This document shows, in pieces, positions 6,824 through 55,701 of a stretch of DNA of 64,000 nt. This DNA is from Minisyncoccota bacterium. GTDB lineage: Bacteria > Patescibacteriota > Minisyncoccia > Phycocordibacterales > UBA9973. The position numbers were made by a program, and so were the translations under genes. Where the stretch lies: contig JBAZVG010000001.1 of assembly GCA_041661005.1 (NCBI GenBank), forward strand, positions 543,515 through 607,514, written 5' to 3'. Position 1 is the first letter of the stretch. Every line of letters starts with the position of its first letter. The notes beneath the pieces were generated by a model, which was given only the letters and a program-made list of their open reading frames with translations, was not told where the DNA came from and searched no databases.

Positions 6824-8017
6824 CTAGCCTAATATCTTAGTAACAACTCCGGCTCCGACAGTCTTGCCTCCTTCACGAATAGCGAATCTTTGAGATTCTT
6901 CGAGCGCAACTGGGGTAACCAATTTAACTGTAATCTTTACTGTGTCTCCCGGCATGACCATCTCTGTTCCTTCAGCTAGAGCGACATCACCAGTAACATC
7001 TGTGGTTCGAATGTAGAATTGAGGTTTGTAACCCTTAAAGAAAGGAGTATGACGTCCACCTTCCTCTTTCTTCAAAACGTAAATTTCAGCAGTGAAATTG
7101 TCATGTGGAGTAGTAGTGCCCGGCTTACAAAGAACTTGTCCGCGAGTGATATCTTCTTTCTTAAGACCACGAAGAAGAATACCAGCATTGTCGCCAGCCA
7201 TACCTTCTTTTAGGCTCTTGTTAAACATTTCTATACCTGTAACTGTTGATTTTTGAGTAGGCTTGATTCCAACTATTTCGACATCTTCATCGACTTTAAC
7301 GACACCTCTTTCAATCTTTCCTGTAACGACAGTTCCACGTCCTTCGATTGAGAATATGTCTTCAACTGGCATGAGAAAAGGCTTTGCTAGATCTCGAACT
7401 GGAATCGGAATATAAGTATCAAGAGCGTTTGCAAGCTCGAGAATTTTCTTTGCCCATTCATCATCAACTGACTTTGACTCGAGACCTTTTAGAGCTGAAC
7501 CACGGATAACCGGAGCTCCTGCGCCGTCAAACCCTTGCTTGGTTAGAAGCTCACGAATTTCTTCCTCGACTAGATCGATCATTTCCTTATCATCAACCAT
7601 ATCGCACTTGTTTAAGAATACGATAATCTTTGGAACACCAACTTGCTTTGCTAGGAGAACGTGTTCACGAGTCTGAGGCATGGCACCGTCAGTAGCGGCA
7701 ACCACCAAAATGGCGCCATCCATTTGCGCTGCGCCTGTGATCATGTTTTTAATATAATCGGCGTGTCCCGGAGCATCGATGTGCGCGTAGTGGCGAGCAT
7801 CCGTAGCATACTCATTGTGAGAAATGTTAATAGTGATTCCACGAGCTTTTTCCTCGGGAGCATTGTCGATCTGATCAACACCTCGAAGTCTGACTTGCTT
7901 TCCAGCCAAGTTTAAAACATGCAAGATCGCAGCGGTTAAAGTGGTCTTACCATGGTCAACGTGACCAATAGTTCCGACATTTACGTGCGGTTTATCTCTT
8001 TTAAATTCTTCTGCCAT
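6824..8017 (-). CDS. tuf: Elongation factor Tu
   Basis: [31 protein letters not shown]... throughout. Likely start at the internal Met (8017) rather than the ORF-track start at 8038. Confidence 0.95.
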
Positions 8018-47812: not shown

Positions 47813-49516
47813 TTAGATAAATTCCTGCTGATAGCATTTCTCACAATAAATTATTTCTGGTCTTTCCGGCGCGTAAGAAGTCCTTATCATCTTGTCGCAT
47901 TTTGCGCATGTACGATTGTAGAGTTTCGGCATCTGCAGTTTATCAAAACGAGATTTCTCTCTACATTTCAAACACCGATCAGGAAGAGGTATATTCATTT
48001 TTCTTAGAAGATCAAACTCTAAACCGGCAATCTTATATCTCCTGTCGCAAGTAGTGCAAGAAATAACTTCCTTTAACATCGATTCATCCACTTCGCTTAT
48101 AGTTTCAGGTAAGTCATTGCCAGAAATAGTTGCTTTGCTTTGTTGTTCTACCTCATCATTCCAAAAATATCCGTCTCTTAATGCTTCCTCTTTTGTCTTT
48201 GGACAAAATTTATAAGCCGTAGAATTATTATAAGCAAATTTACCAAAAACTATTTGAGGAAATTCTCCATATGTCCATATTCTACCTTTTTCATCAACAT
48301 ATGGATTTATTTTCATATCTTCAATTATTTTTTCACGTAAAATTTCATACTCTTCCTTTGAATATTCCTTGTTTAGGATGCAATGTTTTTTTCTCTTTAA
48401 ACTCACACAACCGAAATCATTTTTACCAGATCTATTCCAAAGACAGTACTCAACATCTACAACATCTTCGACGCAATATGCAGAGAATTTAACGTTACTG
48501 ACATTTTCACCAACTGTAACAGATTCATAAATAAGTTCAGCATTATTACCCCAACCCGAATAATCCATACAATCTTTTATTGGAGAGACAGTAATAAACT
48601 GGCACCATTTACTATTTTCTGCTTTACTTGCAATATAAATTTCTTTAGAATTTTTAGAATTAAATAAATATTCTCCAGTAACATTTAAATTTAAAGTGTT
48701 GCCTGTATAAAACCTGTAAGGATGTTTTTGCCAAAATTTTTCGGCTTCTTTTTGAACTTTTTTAATTCCAGAACGCGTGTCTAACTTAAATTCTTTTAAT
48801 TTTTCAAAATATTCTTCTTTAGAATACTGAACATTAAAGATCTGGTAGGATGCGCCCCGTAAATTTACACAACCAACACAATACATAGAACTATAGCAAT
48901 TTCTAGAAAACCAAACATCTGTACAGGCGTCGCATTCTTTGGAATAAAAAACGCGATAAGAATCATTCTGACCTATAGATTCGTAACACAATTCTGATTT
49001 AAATATTCTAAATGAATCAGCTGTATCTTTGGCATTATTTAAGAAGGAAGAAAAGTAAACATTTTCACAATAATCAGCCCAGATGGCAAGGGTGCAATTT
49101 TTAGAAAAACCGATAGAATTACTGTAGTCACAATTTTTCAAATTTAAATAACCCGATTCTAATGACGGAAAAGGAACTTTTTCTGAAAGTTGTTTTAATT
49201 GTTCTAAAAAAGAACGGCTAGAATCATAATCCATACCATACTCTGTTCCATCCCAAGAATCTTCCCACCAACATGGCTGGCAATATACCGTAATTTTTTG
49301 TTCTGGTGGATACATTGAAAGAGCACGCTTGCCACACTTGTCGCAATCACGATAAAAAAGATACCAGCCATTGTGACAAGACATGCGTCTGATCATTCGA
49401 CACTCCGGACACCAAGTCGGCGCTGGAACTTTTATTTTCTCGTAAAAATTAAAGTCTTCGGATTCTATTGTGAAATCTTTTTTGCAATTCTGGCATATTT
49501 TATCTTCTGCTTCCAT
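47813..49516 (-). CDS. Hypothetical large multi-zinc-ribbon (Cys-rich) protein
   Basis: 567 aa with at least ten CxxC pairs clustered at both termini (CQNCKK...CPEC; CDKCGK; CTTCDRR...CLKCREK...CAKCDK...CEKC), internal repeats, and no TM. Confidence 0.5.
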   Translation of the reverse strand: MEAEDKICQNCKKDFTIESEDFNFYEKIKVPAPTWCPECRMIRRMSCHNGWYLFYRDCDKCGKRALSMYPPEQKITVYCQPCWWEDSWDGTEYGMDYDSSRSFLEQLKQLSEKVPFPSLESGYLNLKNCDYSNSIGFSKNCTLAIWADYCENVYFSSFLNNAKDTADSFRIFKSELCYESIGQNDSYRVFYSKECDACTDVWFSRNCYSSMYCVGCVNLRGASYQIFNVQYSKEEYFEKLKEFKLDTRSGIKKVQKEAEKFWQKHPYRFYTGNTLNLNVTGEYLFNSKNSKEIYIASKAENSKWCQFITVSPIKDCMDYSGWGNNAELIYESVTVGENVSNVKFSAYCVEDVVDVEYCLWNRSGKNDFGCVSLKRKKHCILNKEYSKEEYEILREKIIEDMKINPYVDEKGRIWTYGEFPQIVFGKFAYNNSTAYKFCPKTKEEALRDGYFWNDEVEQQSKATISGNDLPETISEVDESMLKEVISCTTCDRRYKIAGLEFDLLRKMNIPLPDRCLKCREKSRFDKLQMPKLYNRTCAKCDKMIRTSYAPERPEIIYCEKCYQQEFI

Positions 49517-49520
49517 AAGT

Positions 49521-50321
49521 TTATTTTATCACCTTTCCGAACTCTTTAGGCACTGTTGATTCAACTTTTACAGTCTTGCCCTTTAAATTTTCAAATTCAA
49601 TAGATTTTGCATGAAGTGCCATGCGAGAAATGCCTTTCGGGCAAAAACCGTCTGGATTATAAAGCAAATCACAAACCACTGGATGATTCAAGAATTTCAT
49701 GTGCACACGGATCTGATGCGTTCGGCCGGTTTTAGGCTTAACTTCAAGATAAGTAAAAGGCAATTGATCTAGCACATCAAAATTTTTCCTCCTGCGCCCT
49801 TCCCCGAGTACGGGGCGGGACCCTCGGAGATAAAAATTTTGATACGCTTTCGCTTTGAATCGCTTTAAAACTTTGTATTCAGTAATTGCTTCACGCATTT
49901 CTCCTCTTGCTCCTCTGCCAGCCAAATGACGACGGAAATCTTTTGGACTCCTACCAATTGGTTTATTTATAATTCCTCTATCATTTTTTACCCAACCAGA
50001 AACTATTGTGTAATAAGTTTTTTTTATTGTTCTATCTTGAAATTGTTTTTTGAGAAATTCATGCGCTTTTTTATTTTTTGCTAAAAGCATAACACCGGAA
50101 GTGTCACGATCTAAACGGTGTACAACTTCGAGTTTGGGATATTTTTTCAAAAAAATACTAAGAATTGTACTTTTGTCCGAGCCTGCCCCGTGCCGAACTC
50201 TTTGTCCCGTAGTGAGCTTTGCTCTACTACTGGGATGTTCTGGTGCAGGGTGCACCAAAATACCCGACGGTTTATCGATGGCTAGAATATTTGTATCTTC
50301 GTATAAAACTTTTATTTTCAT
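49521..50321 (-). CDS. RluA-family pseudouridine synthase
   Basis: 266 aa with the catalytic motif HRLDRDTSGVML and ...THQIRVH... Confidence 0.8.
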   Translation of the reverse strand: MKIKVLYEDTNILAIDKPSGILVHPAPEHPSSRAKLTTGQRVRHGAGSDKSTILSIFLKKYPKLEVVHRLDRDTSGVMLLAKNKKAHEFLKKQFQDRTIKKTYYTIVSGWVKNDRGIINKPIGRSPKDFRRHLAGRGARGEMREAITEYKVLKRFKAKAYQNFYLRGSRPVLGEGRRRKNFDVLDQLPFTYLEVKPKTGRTHQIRVHMKFLNHPVVCDLLYNPDGFCPKGISRMALHAKSIEFENLKGKTVKVESTVPKEFGKVIK

Positions 50322-50432
50322 AAATTGATATTTTTGTTGATTCTATCATATCATTTTTATTTTTTTGAACAGATATGAATCAAAACACTCTGCTGGCTTT
50401 CACCTGCAGAGTGCGCGATTGAAATGTCCCCA

Positions 50433-51152
50433 TCACCTTGGGACAGACCGATAAAACACGTTCGGTGATGAGTAACTGTCGCGAAACGTATTTGTGAAAC
50501 CGGACCGCACCCGCCAATCAATGATGGGCACCCAGTCGACGAGATTGGTTGACCTCTCTAAGCCAGCCAAGACCCCCTCCGTATCTACTGGAGGTTGTCC
50601 GACTGACCAAGATAGATTCGGAATTCCTGCTTCGTCAACAGGCATTCCTAAGTCCTGAAAACTGACAGGTTTAAGATCTGTATCCTTCTCAAAGAGAAGC
50701 GCAAGAGCAACTCGCCCTGTCTCATTGAGAGTCGCATACACGACCGGGGAAATGATTGCAACTGCCTGAGTCTGGGTCTGAGCCATAATAGGAGTAAAAC
50801 TCGTCGACCTCAAACCCTGACCTGAACTTGAAGAAGAAACAATCGAAACCGCCGGTGGTAAATTACTCTCATCCACCCACTCAAACCAGATGCGCTGATC
50901 TTGCCAACTTGCCGAAGTGATATTTGTGACACCACCACCCGGAATAAAAATCCGGACTTCGTTTGTTTCCTGTCCAACTGGTGGCGGACGGTTCAACCGT
51001 TGGGCAAGTTTGTAAATGTTGTAGGCGACATAGCCGCCTCCAACAATGACTAGCGTTGCCACAGCAAACGCCATGAGAACACTGAGAGCGGATGCTTGTT
51101 TTGTCAGCACCATAATCAGCATGCCGACAATGCTCGGGCTCTTGGTTTTCAT
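50433..51152 (-). CDS. Hypothetical membrane-anchored protein (island gene 2)
   Basis: Start at internal MKTKSPSIVGMLIMVLTKQ... giving an ATGA overlap (translational coupling) with the upstream 77-aa ORF. N-terminal TM then a Ser/Thr/Pro-rich extracytoplasmic domain. GC-rich codons. Confidence 0.45.
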   Translation of the reverse strand: MKTKSPSIVGMLIMVLTKQASALSVLMAFAVATLVIVGGGYVAYNIYKLAQRLNRPPPVGQETNEVRIFIPGGGVTNITSASWQDQRIWFEWVDESNLPPAVSIVSSSSSGQGLRSTSFTPIMAQTQTQAVAIISPVVYATLNETGRVALALLFEKDTDLKPVSFQDLGMPVDEAGIPNLSWSVGQPPVDTEGVLAGLERSTNLVDWVPIIDWRVRSGFTNTFRDSYSSPNVFYRSVPR

Positions 51153-51382
51153 GGCAACAGCCCTCCCGATTTGATGTCGTTCAGGATGTAATAAACCAAC
51201 CACACAATCCCCGAGACTAAAACCAGCGTCCCGAGAACGTACTGCACCGGTCGTGACAACCACCGGTTTGTAAACCTGGACTCCGCCTCGCAGAGTCTTG
51301 TGAATATCGTCATAAGACTTCTCCAGCTTTGTCTTTGTCCGTCATCGTAGTTGATGAAGTTAACAAAGATCAATTTTTCCAT
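51149..51382 (-). CDS. Hypothetical small membrane protein (island gene 1)
   Basis: 77 aa with a C-terminal TM (YVLGTLVLVSGIVWLVYYIL). Its stop overlaps the start of the downstream gene. Confidence 0.4.
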   Translation of the reverse strand: MEKLIFVNFINYDDGQRQSWRSLMTIFTRLCEAESRFTNRWLSRPVQYVLGTLVLVSGIVWLVYYILNDIKSGGLLP

Positions 51383-51610
51383 TTTAGAATACTACTTGGT
51401 CGTCAATTTGTCAAATAATCTAAGACACTCTTGATCATGATATTTCTTGATTTTGTATCTGTATTATGACAAGCTCTTAAACGGAATCCCAAAACAGTTT
51501 GTCCATTTTTAGACGAGAAGCACAGTATTAGGTTGTCATCTAAAAAAACAAATGCGCATGAGCGCGATCAATGAGATTTTGTTTTGGGATAGTTTACGGG
51601 AGAAAATCGT

Positions 51611-52168
51611 ATGGAAACCTACACGTTTGGGTTTGGTAGTGATAGGAAACCAGCCTTGGTACCTGGTTTCAAAGTCGACACCTGTGGACAAGTCTTCAAA
51701 GAAGAAAAGGTGGTCGGGTTGGGCGCTGAAGGATCACACCACTACTGGGAAGTACCTTTAAAGATCTACAGGGATAAATACCCTAAAACAGTCGTAACCA
51801 ACCAGATTGAAGCTATTTTTCATGCCCATCCCATCAGAGAAGGACACAATCCCAAATTCTATCTTGTCTATGCAGGCCCTGAACGTCCGTCCGACAGGGT
51901 CCTGATACGAGTTAGAACAATGGCAGGAGACGATGCAGGTTGTGAACCTGGCAGAATCATATTCTGCCACCCTGGGCGGGCATTCAAGATCGCTCATGGA
52001 CATTCGATTAGTTCTGATGGAATTCGGTCTGTGGACATGATCCTCGATGTGCACCCAATGACCTTCTTCATAGTTGTCGCTGGAAGCGATCAACTGCATC
52101 GTCGATTCAAGATAGCTTATTCCGGAGGATGTCCCCCGACTTTCACGGAAATCAAACCCCATCCATAA
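51611..52168 (+). CDS. Hypothetical protein (island gene 3)
   Basis: 185 aa with a GGGAG SD 10 nt upstream, followed by the plus-strand terminator CGGGAGAAATCCCACG-TCTTTTTTATTTT. An overlapping antisense ORF (51758-52225) is the less likely alternative. Confidence 0.45.
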   Translation: METYTFGFGSDRKPALVPGFKVDTCGQVFKEEKVVGLGAEGSHHYWEVPLKIYRDKYPKTVVTNQIEAIFHAHPIREGHNPKFYLVYAGPERPSDRVLIRVRTMAGDDAGCEPGRIIFCHPGRAFKIAHGHSISSDGIRSVDMILDVHPMTFFIVVAGSDQLHRRFKIAYSGGCPPTFTEIKPHP

Positions 52169-52298
52169 TGGGTGAATTAAGCATCGTTGGCTACAAGCCA
52201 AGTTAGCACCAATCAATCTCATCAAAGGCGCGGGAGAAATCCCACGTCTTTTTTATTTTCCAGTTTTCTGGCTTTTAAAAAGACGTTGATTTCTGTGT

Positions 52299-52373
52299 TG
52301 GTGCCCCCGGCAGGAATCGAACCTACATCAAGGCCTTAGAAGAGCCTTGTTCTATCCATTGAACTACGAGGGC
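52299..52373 (-). tRNA. tRNA-Arg(TCT)
   Basis: Minus strand reads GCCCTCG-UA-GUUC-AAUGGAUA-GAAC-A-AGGCU-CUUCUAA-GGCCU-UGAUG-UAGGU-UCGAUUC-CUGCC-GGGGGC-A-CCA. Canonical cloverleaf with anticodon UCU. Confidence 0.85.
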
Positions 52374-52399
52374 TACTTGCCCCGCCCTAGGCGTGGGGG

Positions 52400-52472
52400 T
52401 GCGCGGTGAGGGACTTGAACCCCCGACCTTCTCAGTGTAAATGAGTTGCTCTACCAACTGAGCTAACCGCGC
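52400..52472 (-). tRNA. tRNA-Val(TAC)
   Basis: Minus strand reads GCGCGGU-UA-GCUC-AGUUGGUA-GAGC-A-ACUCA-UUUACAC-UGAGA-AGGUC-GGGGG-UUCAAGU-CCCUC-ACCGCGC-A. Anticodon UAC. CCA not encoded. Confidence 0.85.
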
Positions 52473-52498
52473 ATAAACACCCTTTTAAATTAACATTT

Positions 52499-55203: not shown

Positions 55204-55701
55204 ATGGAAAAATTACCAAAAAAACCTCACTCCATCATTCGATCCTGCGACTTTCTCGTAGATTACGAGCCGGATGCTATAGCACAAGCAATAAGGTCGG
55301 TTCGTTTTCACGAAAAGGATCTCAAGCTCGATCTGGAAGAAATTCCGGTTTTGAGTCACGTCAGAGCTTGGCGGCGTGTCTTTGGGGTCTGCCTATATAA
55401 CCAAACATACGGTTACGAAGTCCCAGAGGCACTAAGCAAAGTGCCTTGCGCGAACAGACCTCTGGTGTTAGCGGATCCGCTGACATCGATACTCTTCATC
55501 GCACTAAATGCTAAAATGATGCGCAGGCATTATTTTGTCAGCATTTTTACCGATACCCACGGACAACAATGGGTCATCAATATGGAAGCCCTCGTTAGGG
55601 AGCCCATTATCCAAATCCACCCGACCTGCCCTGAGGCAATTTACCGGGATGCCGCTATCCACTTGGCCACCCCTAGCAGGCCTCTTGCTTGGGCATCCTA
55701 G
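55204..55701 (+). CDS. Hypothetical protein, GC-richer orphan (candidate horizontally acquired singleton)
   Basis: 165 aa, ~50% GC. Has its own strong promoter (TTGACA-17-TAATCT at ~55120-55150) and a terminator at 55722-55752. Confidence 0.5.
   Translation: MEKLPKKPHSIIRSCDFLVDYEPDAIAQAIRSVRFHEKDLKLDLEEIPVLSHVRAWRRVFGVCLYNQTYGYEVPEALSKVPCANRPLVLADPLTSILFIALNAKMMRRHYFVSIFTDTHGQQWVINMEALVREPIIQIHPTCPEAIYRDAAIHLATPSRPLAWAS

What the first reader, a model, noticed from the sequence alone, without database searches (positions are those of the whole stretch)
50340..52298. GC-richer orphan-gene island inserted beside tRNA-Arg/tRNA-Val
About 2 kb has visibly higher GC content (roughly 50%, against ~37% in the flanks). 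It holds a translationally coupled pair on the minus strand (a 77-aa membrane protein and a 239-aa membrane-anchored protein, sharing an ATGA overlap) and a divergent 185-aa plus-strand ORF. Each unit ends at a strong terminator located exactly at an island edge (50352-50395 and 52228-52262). It directly abuts two tRNA genes. tRNA-adjacent integration of foreign DNA is classical, but no integrase or direct repeats of the tRNA 3' end are evident, so the mechanism is unclear. None of the proteins resembles known families.
Basis: partly seen in the sequence, partly recalled or inferred. Interest (0 to 1): 0.55.

Follow-up and report, generated by a model that had tools for sequence, protein, structure and literature searches.

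The report
Phage-derived membrane gene cassette beside tRNA-Arg
A 2-kb GC-rich insert between tRNA-Arg and rluA in a tiny groundwater bacterium is real foreign DNA: a self-contained two-gene membrane-protein cassette whose relatives sit mostly in phage genomes, plus one orphan gene, kept by selection since before two species split.

Summary
Window 50340-52298 is the GC-richest 2 kb of the 64 kb (45.8% against 38.8%), and its main gene has the most atypical codon usage of 62 genes. The host is a Nomurabacteria-like Paceibacterota (CPR) genome.

In 32 of 38 related genomes with the same tRNA orientation, rluA starts 0-144 bp after tRNA-Arg(tct). Only this genome and one sister lineage (about 80% nucleotide identity) carry the insert. 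They inherited it from a common ancestor, and all three genes are under purifying selection (dN/dS 0.19-0.26).

The genes are not true orphans. The membrane pair (more likely 54 aa than 77, plus 239 aa, overlapping by ATGA) belongs to an undescribed family of about 30 sequence clusters. Most members with readable context lie in phage or phage-like contigs of 50-60% GC, one with portal, Mu-F, capsid and tail genes.

In four chromosomal contexts the pair is preceded by the same promoter motif. A matching terminator follows it in the three contexts where the downstream DNA is available. That is the anatomy of a phage "moron".

No integrase or tRNA repeat is present, so the entry mechanism is unknown. 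Function is inferred only: an envelope module useful to the host, possibly superinfection exclusion. The 185-aa gene remains unexplained. This is a new member of a known kind, of moderate interest.

The parts
52397..52473 (-). tRNA-Val(tac), the upstream member of the tRNA pair. It is context, not part of the insert.
   Evidence: ARAGORN; Rfam tRNA, 70 bits. It holds the same position in relatives.
52299..52373 (-). tRNA-Arg(tct). Its 3' end is one boundary of the insert.
   Evidence: In 32 of 38 relatives with the same tRNA orientation, rluA begins 0-144 bp after this tRNA.
52224..52260 (+). Intrinsic terminator of the 185-aa gene: hairpin GGCGCGGGA-GAAA-UCCCACGUC followed by a U-tract.
   Evidence: The fold of 52169-52270 has z -3.2. 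The segment 52197-52255 is 97% identical to L001, against about 80% on average.
51611..52168 (+). 185-aa soluble protein of unknown function (NCBI locus tag WC735_03330). The conserved core starts at about residue 43 (HYWE...).
   Evidence: ORF. The only relative is the sister-lineage copy (63-67% identity). dN/dS is 0.26, with third-position changes dominant. No hydrophobic segment. No family hit.
51483..51685 (.). A 203-bp segment present here but absent from the sister lineage. It supplies the first 25 codons and the upstream region of the 185-aa gene.
   Evidence: Pairwise alignment gap. It is not repeated elsewhere in the window or the fetched loci. An 11-bp perfect inverted repeat lies at 51486-51496 / 51580-51590.
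51360..51414 (-). Promoter of the gene pair: TTGACA (51414-51409), 17 nt, TATTCT (51391-51386), then TCTTTGTTAA (51369-51360). The last element is nearly the inverse of the -35 region TTGACAAA.
   Evidence: Promoter scan, 10 of 12 matches. The motif TTGACA-N(30-48)-TCTTTGTYAA occurs once in the window (0 in 100 shuffles). Among 96 loci it occurs only upstream of the pair, in L001-3/L086, L004 and L096.
51149..51313 (-). Small membrane protein, 54 aa, with conserved cytoplasmic motif ESxFTNRWLS followed by one transmembrane segment. The stretch 51301-51379 is 95-97% conserved, probably as a 5' leader.
   Evidence: dN/dS 0.25. Homologous small ORFs precede the large gene in L004, L087, L091, L093, L095, L096 and L097.
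50433..51152 (-). 239-aa membrane-anchored protein (NCBI locus tag WC735_03325, annotated there as 209 aa). It has an N-terminal transmembrane helix, a low-confidence linker and a C-terminal beta-sandwich ending in the motifs LERSTNLVDW...FYRSVPR.
   Evidence: dN/dS 0.19. The profile search found 28 distant relatives (alignment). The AF2 model has pLDDT 74, with residues 131-239 at 76-96. No significant fold match.
50378..50414 (-). Intrinsic terminator of the pair: stem GCACUCUGC...GCAGAGUG followed by UUUUGAUU.
   Evidence: The fold has z -3.8. An equivalent hairpin with compensatory changes follows the homologous gene in L001 and L004.
50340..50369 (-). Promoter-like site (TTCAAA, 18 nt, TG-TAGAAT) just upstream of rluA. 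This is the AT-rich junction on the rluA side.
   Evidence: The equivalent sequence is conserved in L001. In relatives with the empty site, rluA follows the tRNA directly.
49521..50321 (-). rluA-type pseudouridine synthase, the conserved flanking gene.
   Evidence: Pfam PseudoU_synth_2, 1e-31. It served as the anchor for 80 related loci.

Best explanation
The island is horizontally acquired DNA. It entered the short spacer between the 3' end of tRNA-Arg(tct) and rluA in the common ancestor of this genome and a sister Hainich-groundwater lineage, and has been inherited vertically and kept by selection since.

Its core is a self-contained transcription unit: a sigma-70-type promoter with an inverted-repeat element, a 54-aa single-pass membrane protein, a translationally coupled 239-aa membrane-anchored protein with a C-terminal beta-sandwich, and an intrinsic terminator. 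The pair belongs to an undescribed family whose members lie mostly in phage or phage-like contigs of 50-60% GC, at varying positions among early or accessory genes. The chromosomal copy therefore looks like a phage 'moron' left in, or delivered to, the host chromosome. A 185-aa soluble protein gene, known only from this lineage, lies divergently beside it.

Shown:
- atypical composition;
- the empty site in relatives;
- shared descent with the sister lineage;
- purifying selection on all three genes;
- family membership and phage contexts;
- conserved promoter and terminator.

Inferred:
- The two membrane proteins act together in the cell envelope.
- They are retained because they benefit the host. 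The function I think most likely is superinfection exclusion or surface conversion, meaning blocking phage adsorption or DNA entry. I give that specific function about 0.3.
- The route of entry was a prophage or other element at the tRNA that later decayed, or illegitimate or homology-assisted insertion at a locus that is variable in this group.
For: - Composition: GC and codon usage are atypical.
- Empty site: rluA lies 0-144 bp after tRNA-Arg in 32 of 38 same-orientation relatives, and none of 80 GTDB-representative loci holds the island genes.
- Shared descent: the sister lineage (L001-L003) has the whole island at 79.6-79.9% nucleotide identity against 76-83% for the flanks. dS is 0.58-0.95 for the island and 0.73-1.30 for the flanks. 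dN/dS is 0.19-0.26.
- Family: a profile search of 1.84 billion representatives gave 29 hits (E <= 1e-3), 16 of them at <= 1e-10.
- Phage contexts:
  - L097 carries portal, Mu-F, an HK97-type capsid protein and a tail terminator.
  - L091/92 carry RecT, exonuclease VIII, VRR-NUC, HNH and a methylase.
  - L087-89 carry a phage primase/helicase.
  - L095 carries SLT, VRR-NUC and Lar.
  - L093 and L098 and L090 have similarly phage-like gene content.
- Conserved pairing: the small partner and its tight coupling (a 4-nt overlap in most) are conserved.
- GC3 gradient: 0.52-0.72 in phage copies, 0.63 in L004 and L096, 0.56 in L001 and 0.48 in the window, against a host background of 0.35. This fits partial amelioration.
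- Self-contained unit: the promoter motif is conserved upstream of the pair in four chromosomal contexts and nowhere else in the held DNA. The terminator is conserved with compensatory changes. Own promoter and terminator plus deviant GC is the published description of a moron (PMC3594210).
- Hotspot: other relatives hold different cargo in the same p104-tRNA-rluA interval. Examples are a GC-rich PEP-CTERM gene in L061, a GC-rich ABC transporter operon in L030, and glycosyltransferase or membrane genes in L073 and L012.
Against: - No other phage gene, integrase or att-type repeat lies in or next to the island, so a prophage origin is inferred from relatives only.
- The family has no hit in GenBank phages or IMG/VR. 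The phage label for most contigs rests on gene content in 7-20 kb excerpts.
- Direction of transfer is not proven. Phages could have picked the pair up from bacteria.
- In the phage contigs the pair sits inside operons, without the promoter or terminator.
- Polarised third-position changes do not show a clear GC-to-AT bias (18:12 and 14:14).
- The phage contigs have far higher GC than this host, so they probably infect other organisms.
- Nothing ties the proteins to any known exclusion, lysis or defence family.
- The 185-aa gene has no relatives outside the lineage, and its link to the cassette is only positional.
Confidence: 0.6

Rival explanations
1. This is a generic genomic islet acquired from another bacterium, for instance another CPR lineage or the CPR cell's host, by transformation and recombination at a variable locus. 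Phages play no part. On this reading the pair is simply a cell-surface or membrane protein module, for example for attachment, that phages also sometimes carry.
For: Chromosomal copies with the same promoter lie in non-phage contexts: L004 next to MBG- and cohesin-domain surface proteins and recG, and L096 next to an M16 peptidase in a Taylorbacteria MAG. The locus holds unrelated non-phage cargo in other relatives. Type IV pilus genes are adjacent. HGT among Patescibacteria is reported to be common (PMC12455944).
Against: Seven of the nine distinct contexts outside this lineage are phage-like, one with structural genes. The cassette has moron anatomy. Its GC3 is closest to that of the phage copies.
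Confidence: 0.25
2. The pair is a remnant lysis module: a holin-like small membrane protein plus a class-III-holin-like, antiholin-like or spanin-like type II membrane protein.
For: The pair combines a small single-pass membrane protein with a coupled protein of about 210 aa that has one transmembrane segment and a large C-terminal domain. From my own knowledge, that architecture resembles the T4 holin T. The family is phage-borne.
Against: - There is no hit to holin, spanin or endolysin families.
- The small protein has no lipobox, and the large protein's ectodomain is predicted to be beta-rich rather than coiled-coil.
- No endolysin is adjacent in any context. An SLT gene in L095 lies 7.5 kb away.
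- The position in phage genomes varies and is mostly among early genes.
- Long-term purifying selection in hosts lacking every other phage gene is hard to reconcile with a lysis function.
Confidence: 0.07
3. This is a native, lineage-specific region whose GC richness reflects amino-acid or RNA-structure constraints, or an assembly chimera, and not foreign DNA.
For: GC1 and GC2 of the genes are also high. Metagenome-assembled genomes can contain chimeric joins.
Against: - The same island with the same junctions was assembled independently in the window genome, two NCBI MAGs and an ENA contig.
- GC3 and codon usage are also atypical.
- The site is empty in dozens of relatives.
- Homologues with the same promoter and terminator occur in unrelated contexts.
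- Rfam finds nothing, and substitutions show coding periodicity.
Confidence: 0.03

Closest known systems
Phage morons (for example the HK97 gene 15 moron; Juhala et al. 2000; reviewed in PMC3594210)
   Same: It is an independent transcription unit with its own promoter and terminator. Its GC differs from that of its neighbours. It is inserted between genes that are adjacent in related genomes. It encodes small membrane proteins. Relatives of the cassette are scattered at different places in phage genomes.
   Different: This copy lies in a bacterial chromosome with no surrounding prophage. The phage-borne relatives seen here lack the promoter and terminator. There is no sequence or fold similarity to any described moron product.
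tRNA-associated genomic islands and integrative elements
   Same: The insert starts at the 3' end of a tRNA gene, has atypical composition and carries cargo of unknown function. The surrounding interval holds varied cargo in other relatives.
   Different: It has no integrase, no direct repeat of the tRNA 3' end and no mobility genes, and it is only 2 kb long. Other copies of the cassette (L004, L096) are not next to tRNAs.
Membrane-anchored superinfection-exclusion proteins (lactococcal Sie2009, T4 Sp/Imm, HK97 gp15, TP-J34 Ltp); these family names are recalled from my own knowledge
   Same: It encodes small, membrane-anchored proteins of phage ancestry, apparently expressed from their own promoter and retained in the host.
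   Different: There is no homology (Pfam, PHROGs and PADLOC are all negative), the two-protein arrangement is unlike those systems, and no phenotype is known. The resemblance is architectural only.
T4-type class III holin T with antiholin, and spanins
   Same: It has a single transmembrane segment with a large C-terminal domain of about 200 aa, a small membrane partner and a phage origin.
   Different: There is no family hit, no lipobox, no coiled-coil and no adjacent endolysin, and the pair is retained in hosts without other lysis genes.

Membership tests
Phage moron | Own promoter | tested here: met
   TTGACA-17-TATTCT at 51414-51386. The motif is conserved upstream of the pair in four chromosomal contexts and is absent from the other 90 loci. 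Activity was not measured.
Phage moron | Own terminator | tested here: met
   Hairpin plus U-tract at 50378-50414 (-), z -3.8, conserved with compensatory changes in L001 and L004.
Phage moron | GC content different from neighbouring genes | tested here: met
   The pair is 50-52% GC against 31-39% for the flanking genes. The same contrast appears in L001 and L096.
Phage moron | Inserted between genes that are adjacent in related genomes | tested here: met
   tRNA-Arg and rluA are 0-144 bp apart in 32 of 38 relatives with the same tRNA orientation.
Phage moron | Located within a phage or prophage genome | tested here: not met
   No phage gene lies within or beside the island. Only distant relatives of the pair are found in phage genomes.
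tRNA-targeted integrative island | Insertion at the 3' end of a tRNA gene | tested here: met
   The island starts at the 3' end of tRNA-Arg(tct) at 52299.
tRNA-targeted integrative island | Integrase or recombinase gene | tested here: not met
   The island holds only three ORFs and none matches a recombinase.
tRNA-targeted integrative island | Direct repeat of the tRNA 3' end at the far boundary | tested here: not met
   The 24-nt 3' segment has no second copy with up to 3 mismatches. The only repeats are chance-level matches of 10-16 nt.
Superinfection-exclusion proteins | Sequence or fold similarity to a described exclusion or defence family | tested here: not met
   No hit in Pfam, NCBIfam, PHROGs or PADLOC. 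Foldseek against PDB and BFVD gave no match at E < 0.1.
Superinfection-exclusion proteins | Blocks infection by other phages when expressed | not testable with these tools
   This needs an experiment.
Two-component spanin | Small partner is an outer-membrane lipoprotein (lipobox Cys), and the large partner has a coiled-coil periplasmic domain | tested here: not met
   The small protein has no conserved Cys or lipobox. The large protein's C-terminal part is predicted to be a beta-sandwich.
Holin / lysis cassette | Match to a holin family and adjacency to an endolysin | tested here: not met
   No holin hit. No endolysin neighbour in any of ten contexts.
Structured non-coding RNA (a GC-rich patch in an AT-rich genome) | Match to an RNA family, or non-coding substitution pattern | tested here: not met
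   Rfam shows only the tRNAs. Substitutions concentrate at third codon positions, with dN/dS 0.19-0.26.

The most novel reading that the evidence does not exclude
The 54-aa and 239-aa pair is a previously undescribed two-protein envelope module of phage origin. Several CPR lineages have independently domesticated it as a phage-exclusion or surface-conversion device. It moves as a complete promoter-operator-genes-terminator unit. Its conserved promoter element marks a shared regulator, and the family gives a sequence handle for linking uncultivated tailed phages to CPR or neighbouring hosts.
Probability: 0.2. Interest if true: 0.6.

Novelty: new member of a known kind. Interest (0 to 1): 0.4.

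Why it matters
CPR/Patescibacteria have tiny, streamlined genomes. Any gene they gain and then keep under selection is a clue to what limits their fitness, and little is known about how they interact with phages.

This case shows a clean, datable gene gain with the empty site preserved in relatives. It identifies an uncatalogued two-gene membrane family shared between tailed phages and at least two or three CPR chromosomal contexts. It also shows that the tRNA-Val/Arg-rluA interval is a recurrent landing site for foreign genes in Nomurabacteria.

If the pair proves to be an exclusion or surface module, it would add a new family to the moron and defence repertoire. As it stands, this is a well-documented example of a familiar process, not a new one.

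Tried and rejected
- Family and RNA searches: Pfam, NCBIfam, PHROGs and PADLOC scans of all three proteins gave nothing above noise. Rfam at gathering and at E <= 1 gave only the tRNAs.
- tRNA 3'-end repeat: none found at the far boundary. The held phage excerpts contain no attP-like tRNA fragment.
- Public phage collections: IMG/VR scans with the 3-sequence profile, an 8-sequence profile, the 185-aa protein and the promoter motif all found nothing. The 29-sequence alignment was too divergent to seed a scan. GenBank phages gave no tblastn hit.
- Metagenome scan: it only re-found L003.
- Word-indexed search with the family profile: it was capped at 8000 candidates and returned only 5 proteins.
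- Solved structures: PDB sequence searches gave nothing.
- Is the 185-aa protein a divergent DUF7694 (phrog_7839), a neighbour of the pair in three phage contigs? hhalign probability was 0.1%, so this was rejected.
- Conserved RNA structure in the 95-97% conserved leader: not supported.
- Is the window-specific 203-bp segment a repeated mobile element? No other copies were found.
- Direction of third-position changes, using L004 as outgroup: inconclusive.
Full report
**What is there**

The window comes from a Candidatus Paceibacterota (Nomurabacteria-like, CPR) MAG. The two larger island proteins match NCBI entries WC735_03325 and WC735_03330 on an 813-kb contig.

- Composition: interval 50340-52298 is 45.8% GC against 38.8% for the rest, and is the GC-richest 2-kb stretch of the window. 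The coding parts reach 47-51%. The central intergenic region falls to 40%.
- Codon usage: GC3 of the two larger genes is 0.45-0.48 against 0.35 +/- 0.06 for 62 window genes. The 239-aa gene has the most atypical synonymous codon usage of the 62 (z -2.8). The 185-aa gene ranks fourth (z -1.5).
- ORFs, tRNAs and terminators: the three ORFs, the ATGA overlap, the two tRNAs and terminators at both edges are all present. One terminator is at 52224-52260 (+).
- Negative searches: nothing in Rfam apart from the tRNAs. No hit for any of the three proteins in Pfam, NCBIfam, PHROGs or PADLOC.

**Is it an insertion?**

Yes. A scan of one genome per GTDB species with the flanking RluA protein returned 80 Nomurabacteria-type loci. 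Most keep the order pilM-pilN-pilO-104-aa gene-tRNA-Val(tac)-tRNA-Arg(tct)-rluA.

In 32 of the 38 loci whose tRNAs have the same orientation as here, rluA starts 0-144 bp after the tRNA-Arg 3' end, and often within 5 bp. None of the 80 loci encodes a relative of any island protein. In the window the distance is 1,977 bp. The insert begins at the tRNA 3' end.

**Age**

Three independent assemblies from Hainich groundwater (two NCBI MAGs and an ENA contig; L001-L003) carry the whole island at the same junctions.

- Nucleotide identity to the window is 79.6-79.9% across the island and 76-83% in the flanks.
- dS is 0.58-0.95 for the island genes and 0.73-1.30 for the flanking genes.
- All three island genes show coding-type substitution patterns, with dN/dS 0.19, 0.25 and 0.26.

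The island therefore predates the split of these two lineages, postdates their split from the other sampled Nomurabacteria, and has been maintained by selection. It is neither an assembly artefact nor a structured RNA.

**Corrections to the gene models**

- The ATG at 51382 that opens the 77-aa ORF is ATA in the sister lineage.
- Homologues elsewhere begin at the Met equivalent to residue 24.
- The promoter-like site TTGACA-17-TATTCT (51414-51386) would start transcription at about 51379.
- A 54-aa product from 51313, preceded by GGAG, is therefore more likely.
- The stretch 51301-51379 is 95-97% identical between the two lineages, against about 80% overall. This probably reflects a leader or regulatory function. 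A conserved RNA fold was not supported.
- The first 25 codons of the 185-aa gene lie in a 203-bp segment (51483-51685) absent from the sister lineage. There the ORF is open from the equivalent of residue 26 but has a start codon only at residue 50.

**The pair is not orphan**

A profile of the three close sequences, searched against 1.84 billion cluster representatives, found 29 proteins at E <= 1e-3, of which 16 were at <= 1e-10. They are 176-326 aa long. They share:

- an N-terminal basic stretch and a transmembrane helix;
- a K-W-A-K-R-like stop-transfer segment;
- the motifs TN, W-x-E-W and LG-x-PVDE-x-G-x-P;
- a C-terminal LERSTNL-x-D-W ... FYR-A motif.

With this 29-sequence alignment AlphaFold2 gives a usable model (pLDDT 74). 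It has a long helix at residues 9-54, a poorly defined linker, and a confident beta-sandwich at 131-239. Foldseek against PDB and BFVD found nothing significant, only generic FN3- or CBM-like sandwiches at E > 0.1.

**Contexts of the relatives**

- L097 (NCBI GCA_040961015.1, a 71.5-kb contig) has a portal, Mu-F, an HK97-type capsid protein and a tail terminator. The family member lies between a block of glycosyl- and methyltransferases and the capsid genes.
- L091/L092 (53.6 kb) have RecT, an exonuclease VIII-like nuclease, VRR-NUC, an HNH endonuclease, a DNA methylase and a PAPS-reductase-like gene.
- L087-L089 have a phage-type primase/helicase and a methyltransferase.
- L095 has SLT, VRR-NUC and Lar.
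- L093/L094, L098 and L090 are similar runs of small same-strand genes.
- In L087, L091, L093, L095 and L097 a 49-59-aa ORF with the motif E-[ST]-x-F-T-[ND]-R-[WHFY]-L followed by one transmembrane segment directly precedes the large gene, usually overlapping it by 4 nt. The two genes are thus a conserved unit.
- These contigs are 50-60% GC.
- The position within the phage genomes varies, as expected of accessory genes.
- The family is absent from GenBank phages and IMG/VR.

**Chromosomal copies and the self-contained unit**

Two further copies lie among ordinary cellular genes.

- L004 (a Logan contig of about 48% GC) has the pair between surface proteins with MBG and cohesin domains and recG. 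Its large protein is 55% identical to the window's.
- L096 (a contig binned to a Taylorbacteria MAG) has the pair after an M16 peptidase gene. The pair is 52% GC and the peptidase gene 42%.

Upstream of the pair in the window, L001-3, L004 and L096 lies the same element: TTGACA, then a -10 box 17 nt downstream, then TCTTTGT(C/T)AA about 20 nt further on. That last element is the inverse of the -35 region TTGACAAA. The motif occurs once in the window (0 in 100 shuffles) and in no other of the 96 held loci.

Downstream, the terminator hairpin is conserved with compensatory changes in the window, L001 and L004.

The cassette thus moves as promoter-genes-terminator with deviant GC. That is the published description of a moron (PMC3594210), except that here it sits in a chromosome without a prophage.

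GC3 of the large gene falls from 0.52-0.72 in phage copies, through 0.63 (L004, L096) and 0.56 (L001), to 0.48 in the window. The host background is 0.35. This is consistent with partial amelioration. A polarised count of third-position changes was inconclusive.

**How it got there**

This is not resolved. There is no integrase, no repeat of the tRNA 3' end and no tRNA-like fragment in the held phage excerpts. The other cassette copies are not next to tRNAs.

The locus itself is variable in the group:

- a GC-rich PEP-CTERM protein gene at the same tRNA-Arg/rluA junction in L061;
- a GC-rich amino-acid ABC transporter operon in L030;
- PAP2, glycosidase and GT4 genes in L073;
- two membrane proteins in L012.

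Either a prophage or element integrated at the tRNA and decayed to its selectively useful remnant, or the DNA entered by illegitimate or flank-assisted recombination at a permissive spacer. Before the insertion rluA probably rode on the tRNA transcript. It now has its own promoter-like site at 50340-50369. This step is inferred.

**What it does**

This is inference.

- Both proteins have one hydrophobic segment, and the 185-aa protein has none.
- No catalytic-looking invariant residues exist in the family. Only a Pro and a Trp are invariant.
- The pair is accessory in phages, and in three phage contexts it lies near surface-modifying glycosyltransferases.
- Hosts keep the pair under purifying selection without any other phage gene.

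That combination argues against a lysis role. It favours a host-beneficial envelope function, of which superinfection exclusion or surface conversion is the commonest for morons (PMC3594210). I put that specific function at about 0.3. I put the general claim, a horizontally acquired cassette of phage affinity retained by selection, at about 0.75-0.8. The 185-aa gene is unexplained.

**Verdict**

This is a new, uncatalogued gene family in a familiar kind of event. Interest is moderate (0.4).

Noticed in passing
L009:5311-5985, L015:5311-5985, L029, L050, L052, L043, L042, L061:3234-3905: A protein of about 224 aa with an N-terminal helix-turn-helix (weak resolvase-HTH and DNA-invertase-like hits) sits at the tRNA-Val/Arg locus in 8 relatives. 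It is 75-82% identical among five of them (L009, L015, L029, L050, L061), whose RluA proteins are each only about 52-68% identical to the window's; identity falls to 58-61% in L043/L052 and about 37% in L042. In 7 of the 8 the tRNA pair is inverted relative to rluA. It looks like a selfish or mobile gene tied to this site and could help explain why the locus is variable. It is absent from the window.
   Followed up: partly
L061:5081-6000: At the same tRNA-Arg/rluA junction another Nomurabacteria MAG holds a 920-bp insert of 51% GC (locus 41%). It encodes a 236-aa secreted protein with a PEP-CTERM sorting signal (TIGR02595, 23 bits, cutoff 16), which is unexpected in a CPR genome.
   Followed up: partly
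L030:1960-5797: A 3.8-kb stretch of 48% GC (locus 42%) between the 104-aa gene and the tRNA pair carries an amino-acid ABC transporter operon (SBP_bac_3, permease, ATPase). It is another likely acquisition at this locus.
   Followed up: partly
L013:3596-3737, L014:5861-6000, L016:5413-5545, L018:5917-6000, L033:5916-6000: Several relatives have a conserved, GC-rich element of 85-140 nt between tRNA-Arg and rluA (for example ...GAGTCCGCAGCGCGACGGCGCGAGGAGCGGGGTGCGAAA...). It has no Rfam match and could be a small RNA or a processing or terminator element.
   Followed up: partly
window 55204-55701 (+): A 165-aa ORF between pilM and a ruvX-like gene is 49% GC with GC3 0.52, the second most atypical codon usage in the window (z -2.4). 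It has no family hit. A 29%-identical homologue lies beside pilM in L009. The sister lineage L001 has recO at this position instead. It may be a second foreign or fast-evolving gene about 3 kb from the island.
   Followed up: partly
window 51301-51379 and 52197-52255: Two non-coding or leader segments of the island are 95-97% identical to the sister lineage, while the genes are about 80% identical. This points to regulatory constraint. An RNA fold for the leader was not supported.
   Followed up: partly
window 47813-49516; L001:11556-16820: A Cys-rich protein of about 570 aa with treble-clef zinc-finger-like repeats follows rluA. It is present as three tandem paralogues in the sister lineage but only one in the window, so copy number varies.
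   Followed up: no
L087:5191-5823, L091:9251-9619, L095:3504-3965: DUF7694 (phrog_7839, unknown function) recurs near the membrane pair in three phage-like contigs, directly upstream in L087. No paper mentions it, and it is unrelated to the window's 185-aa protein.
   Followed up: partly
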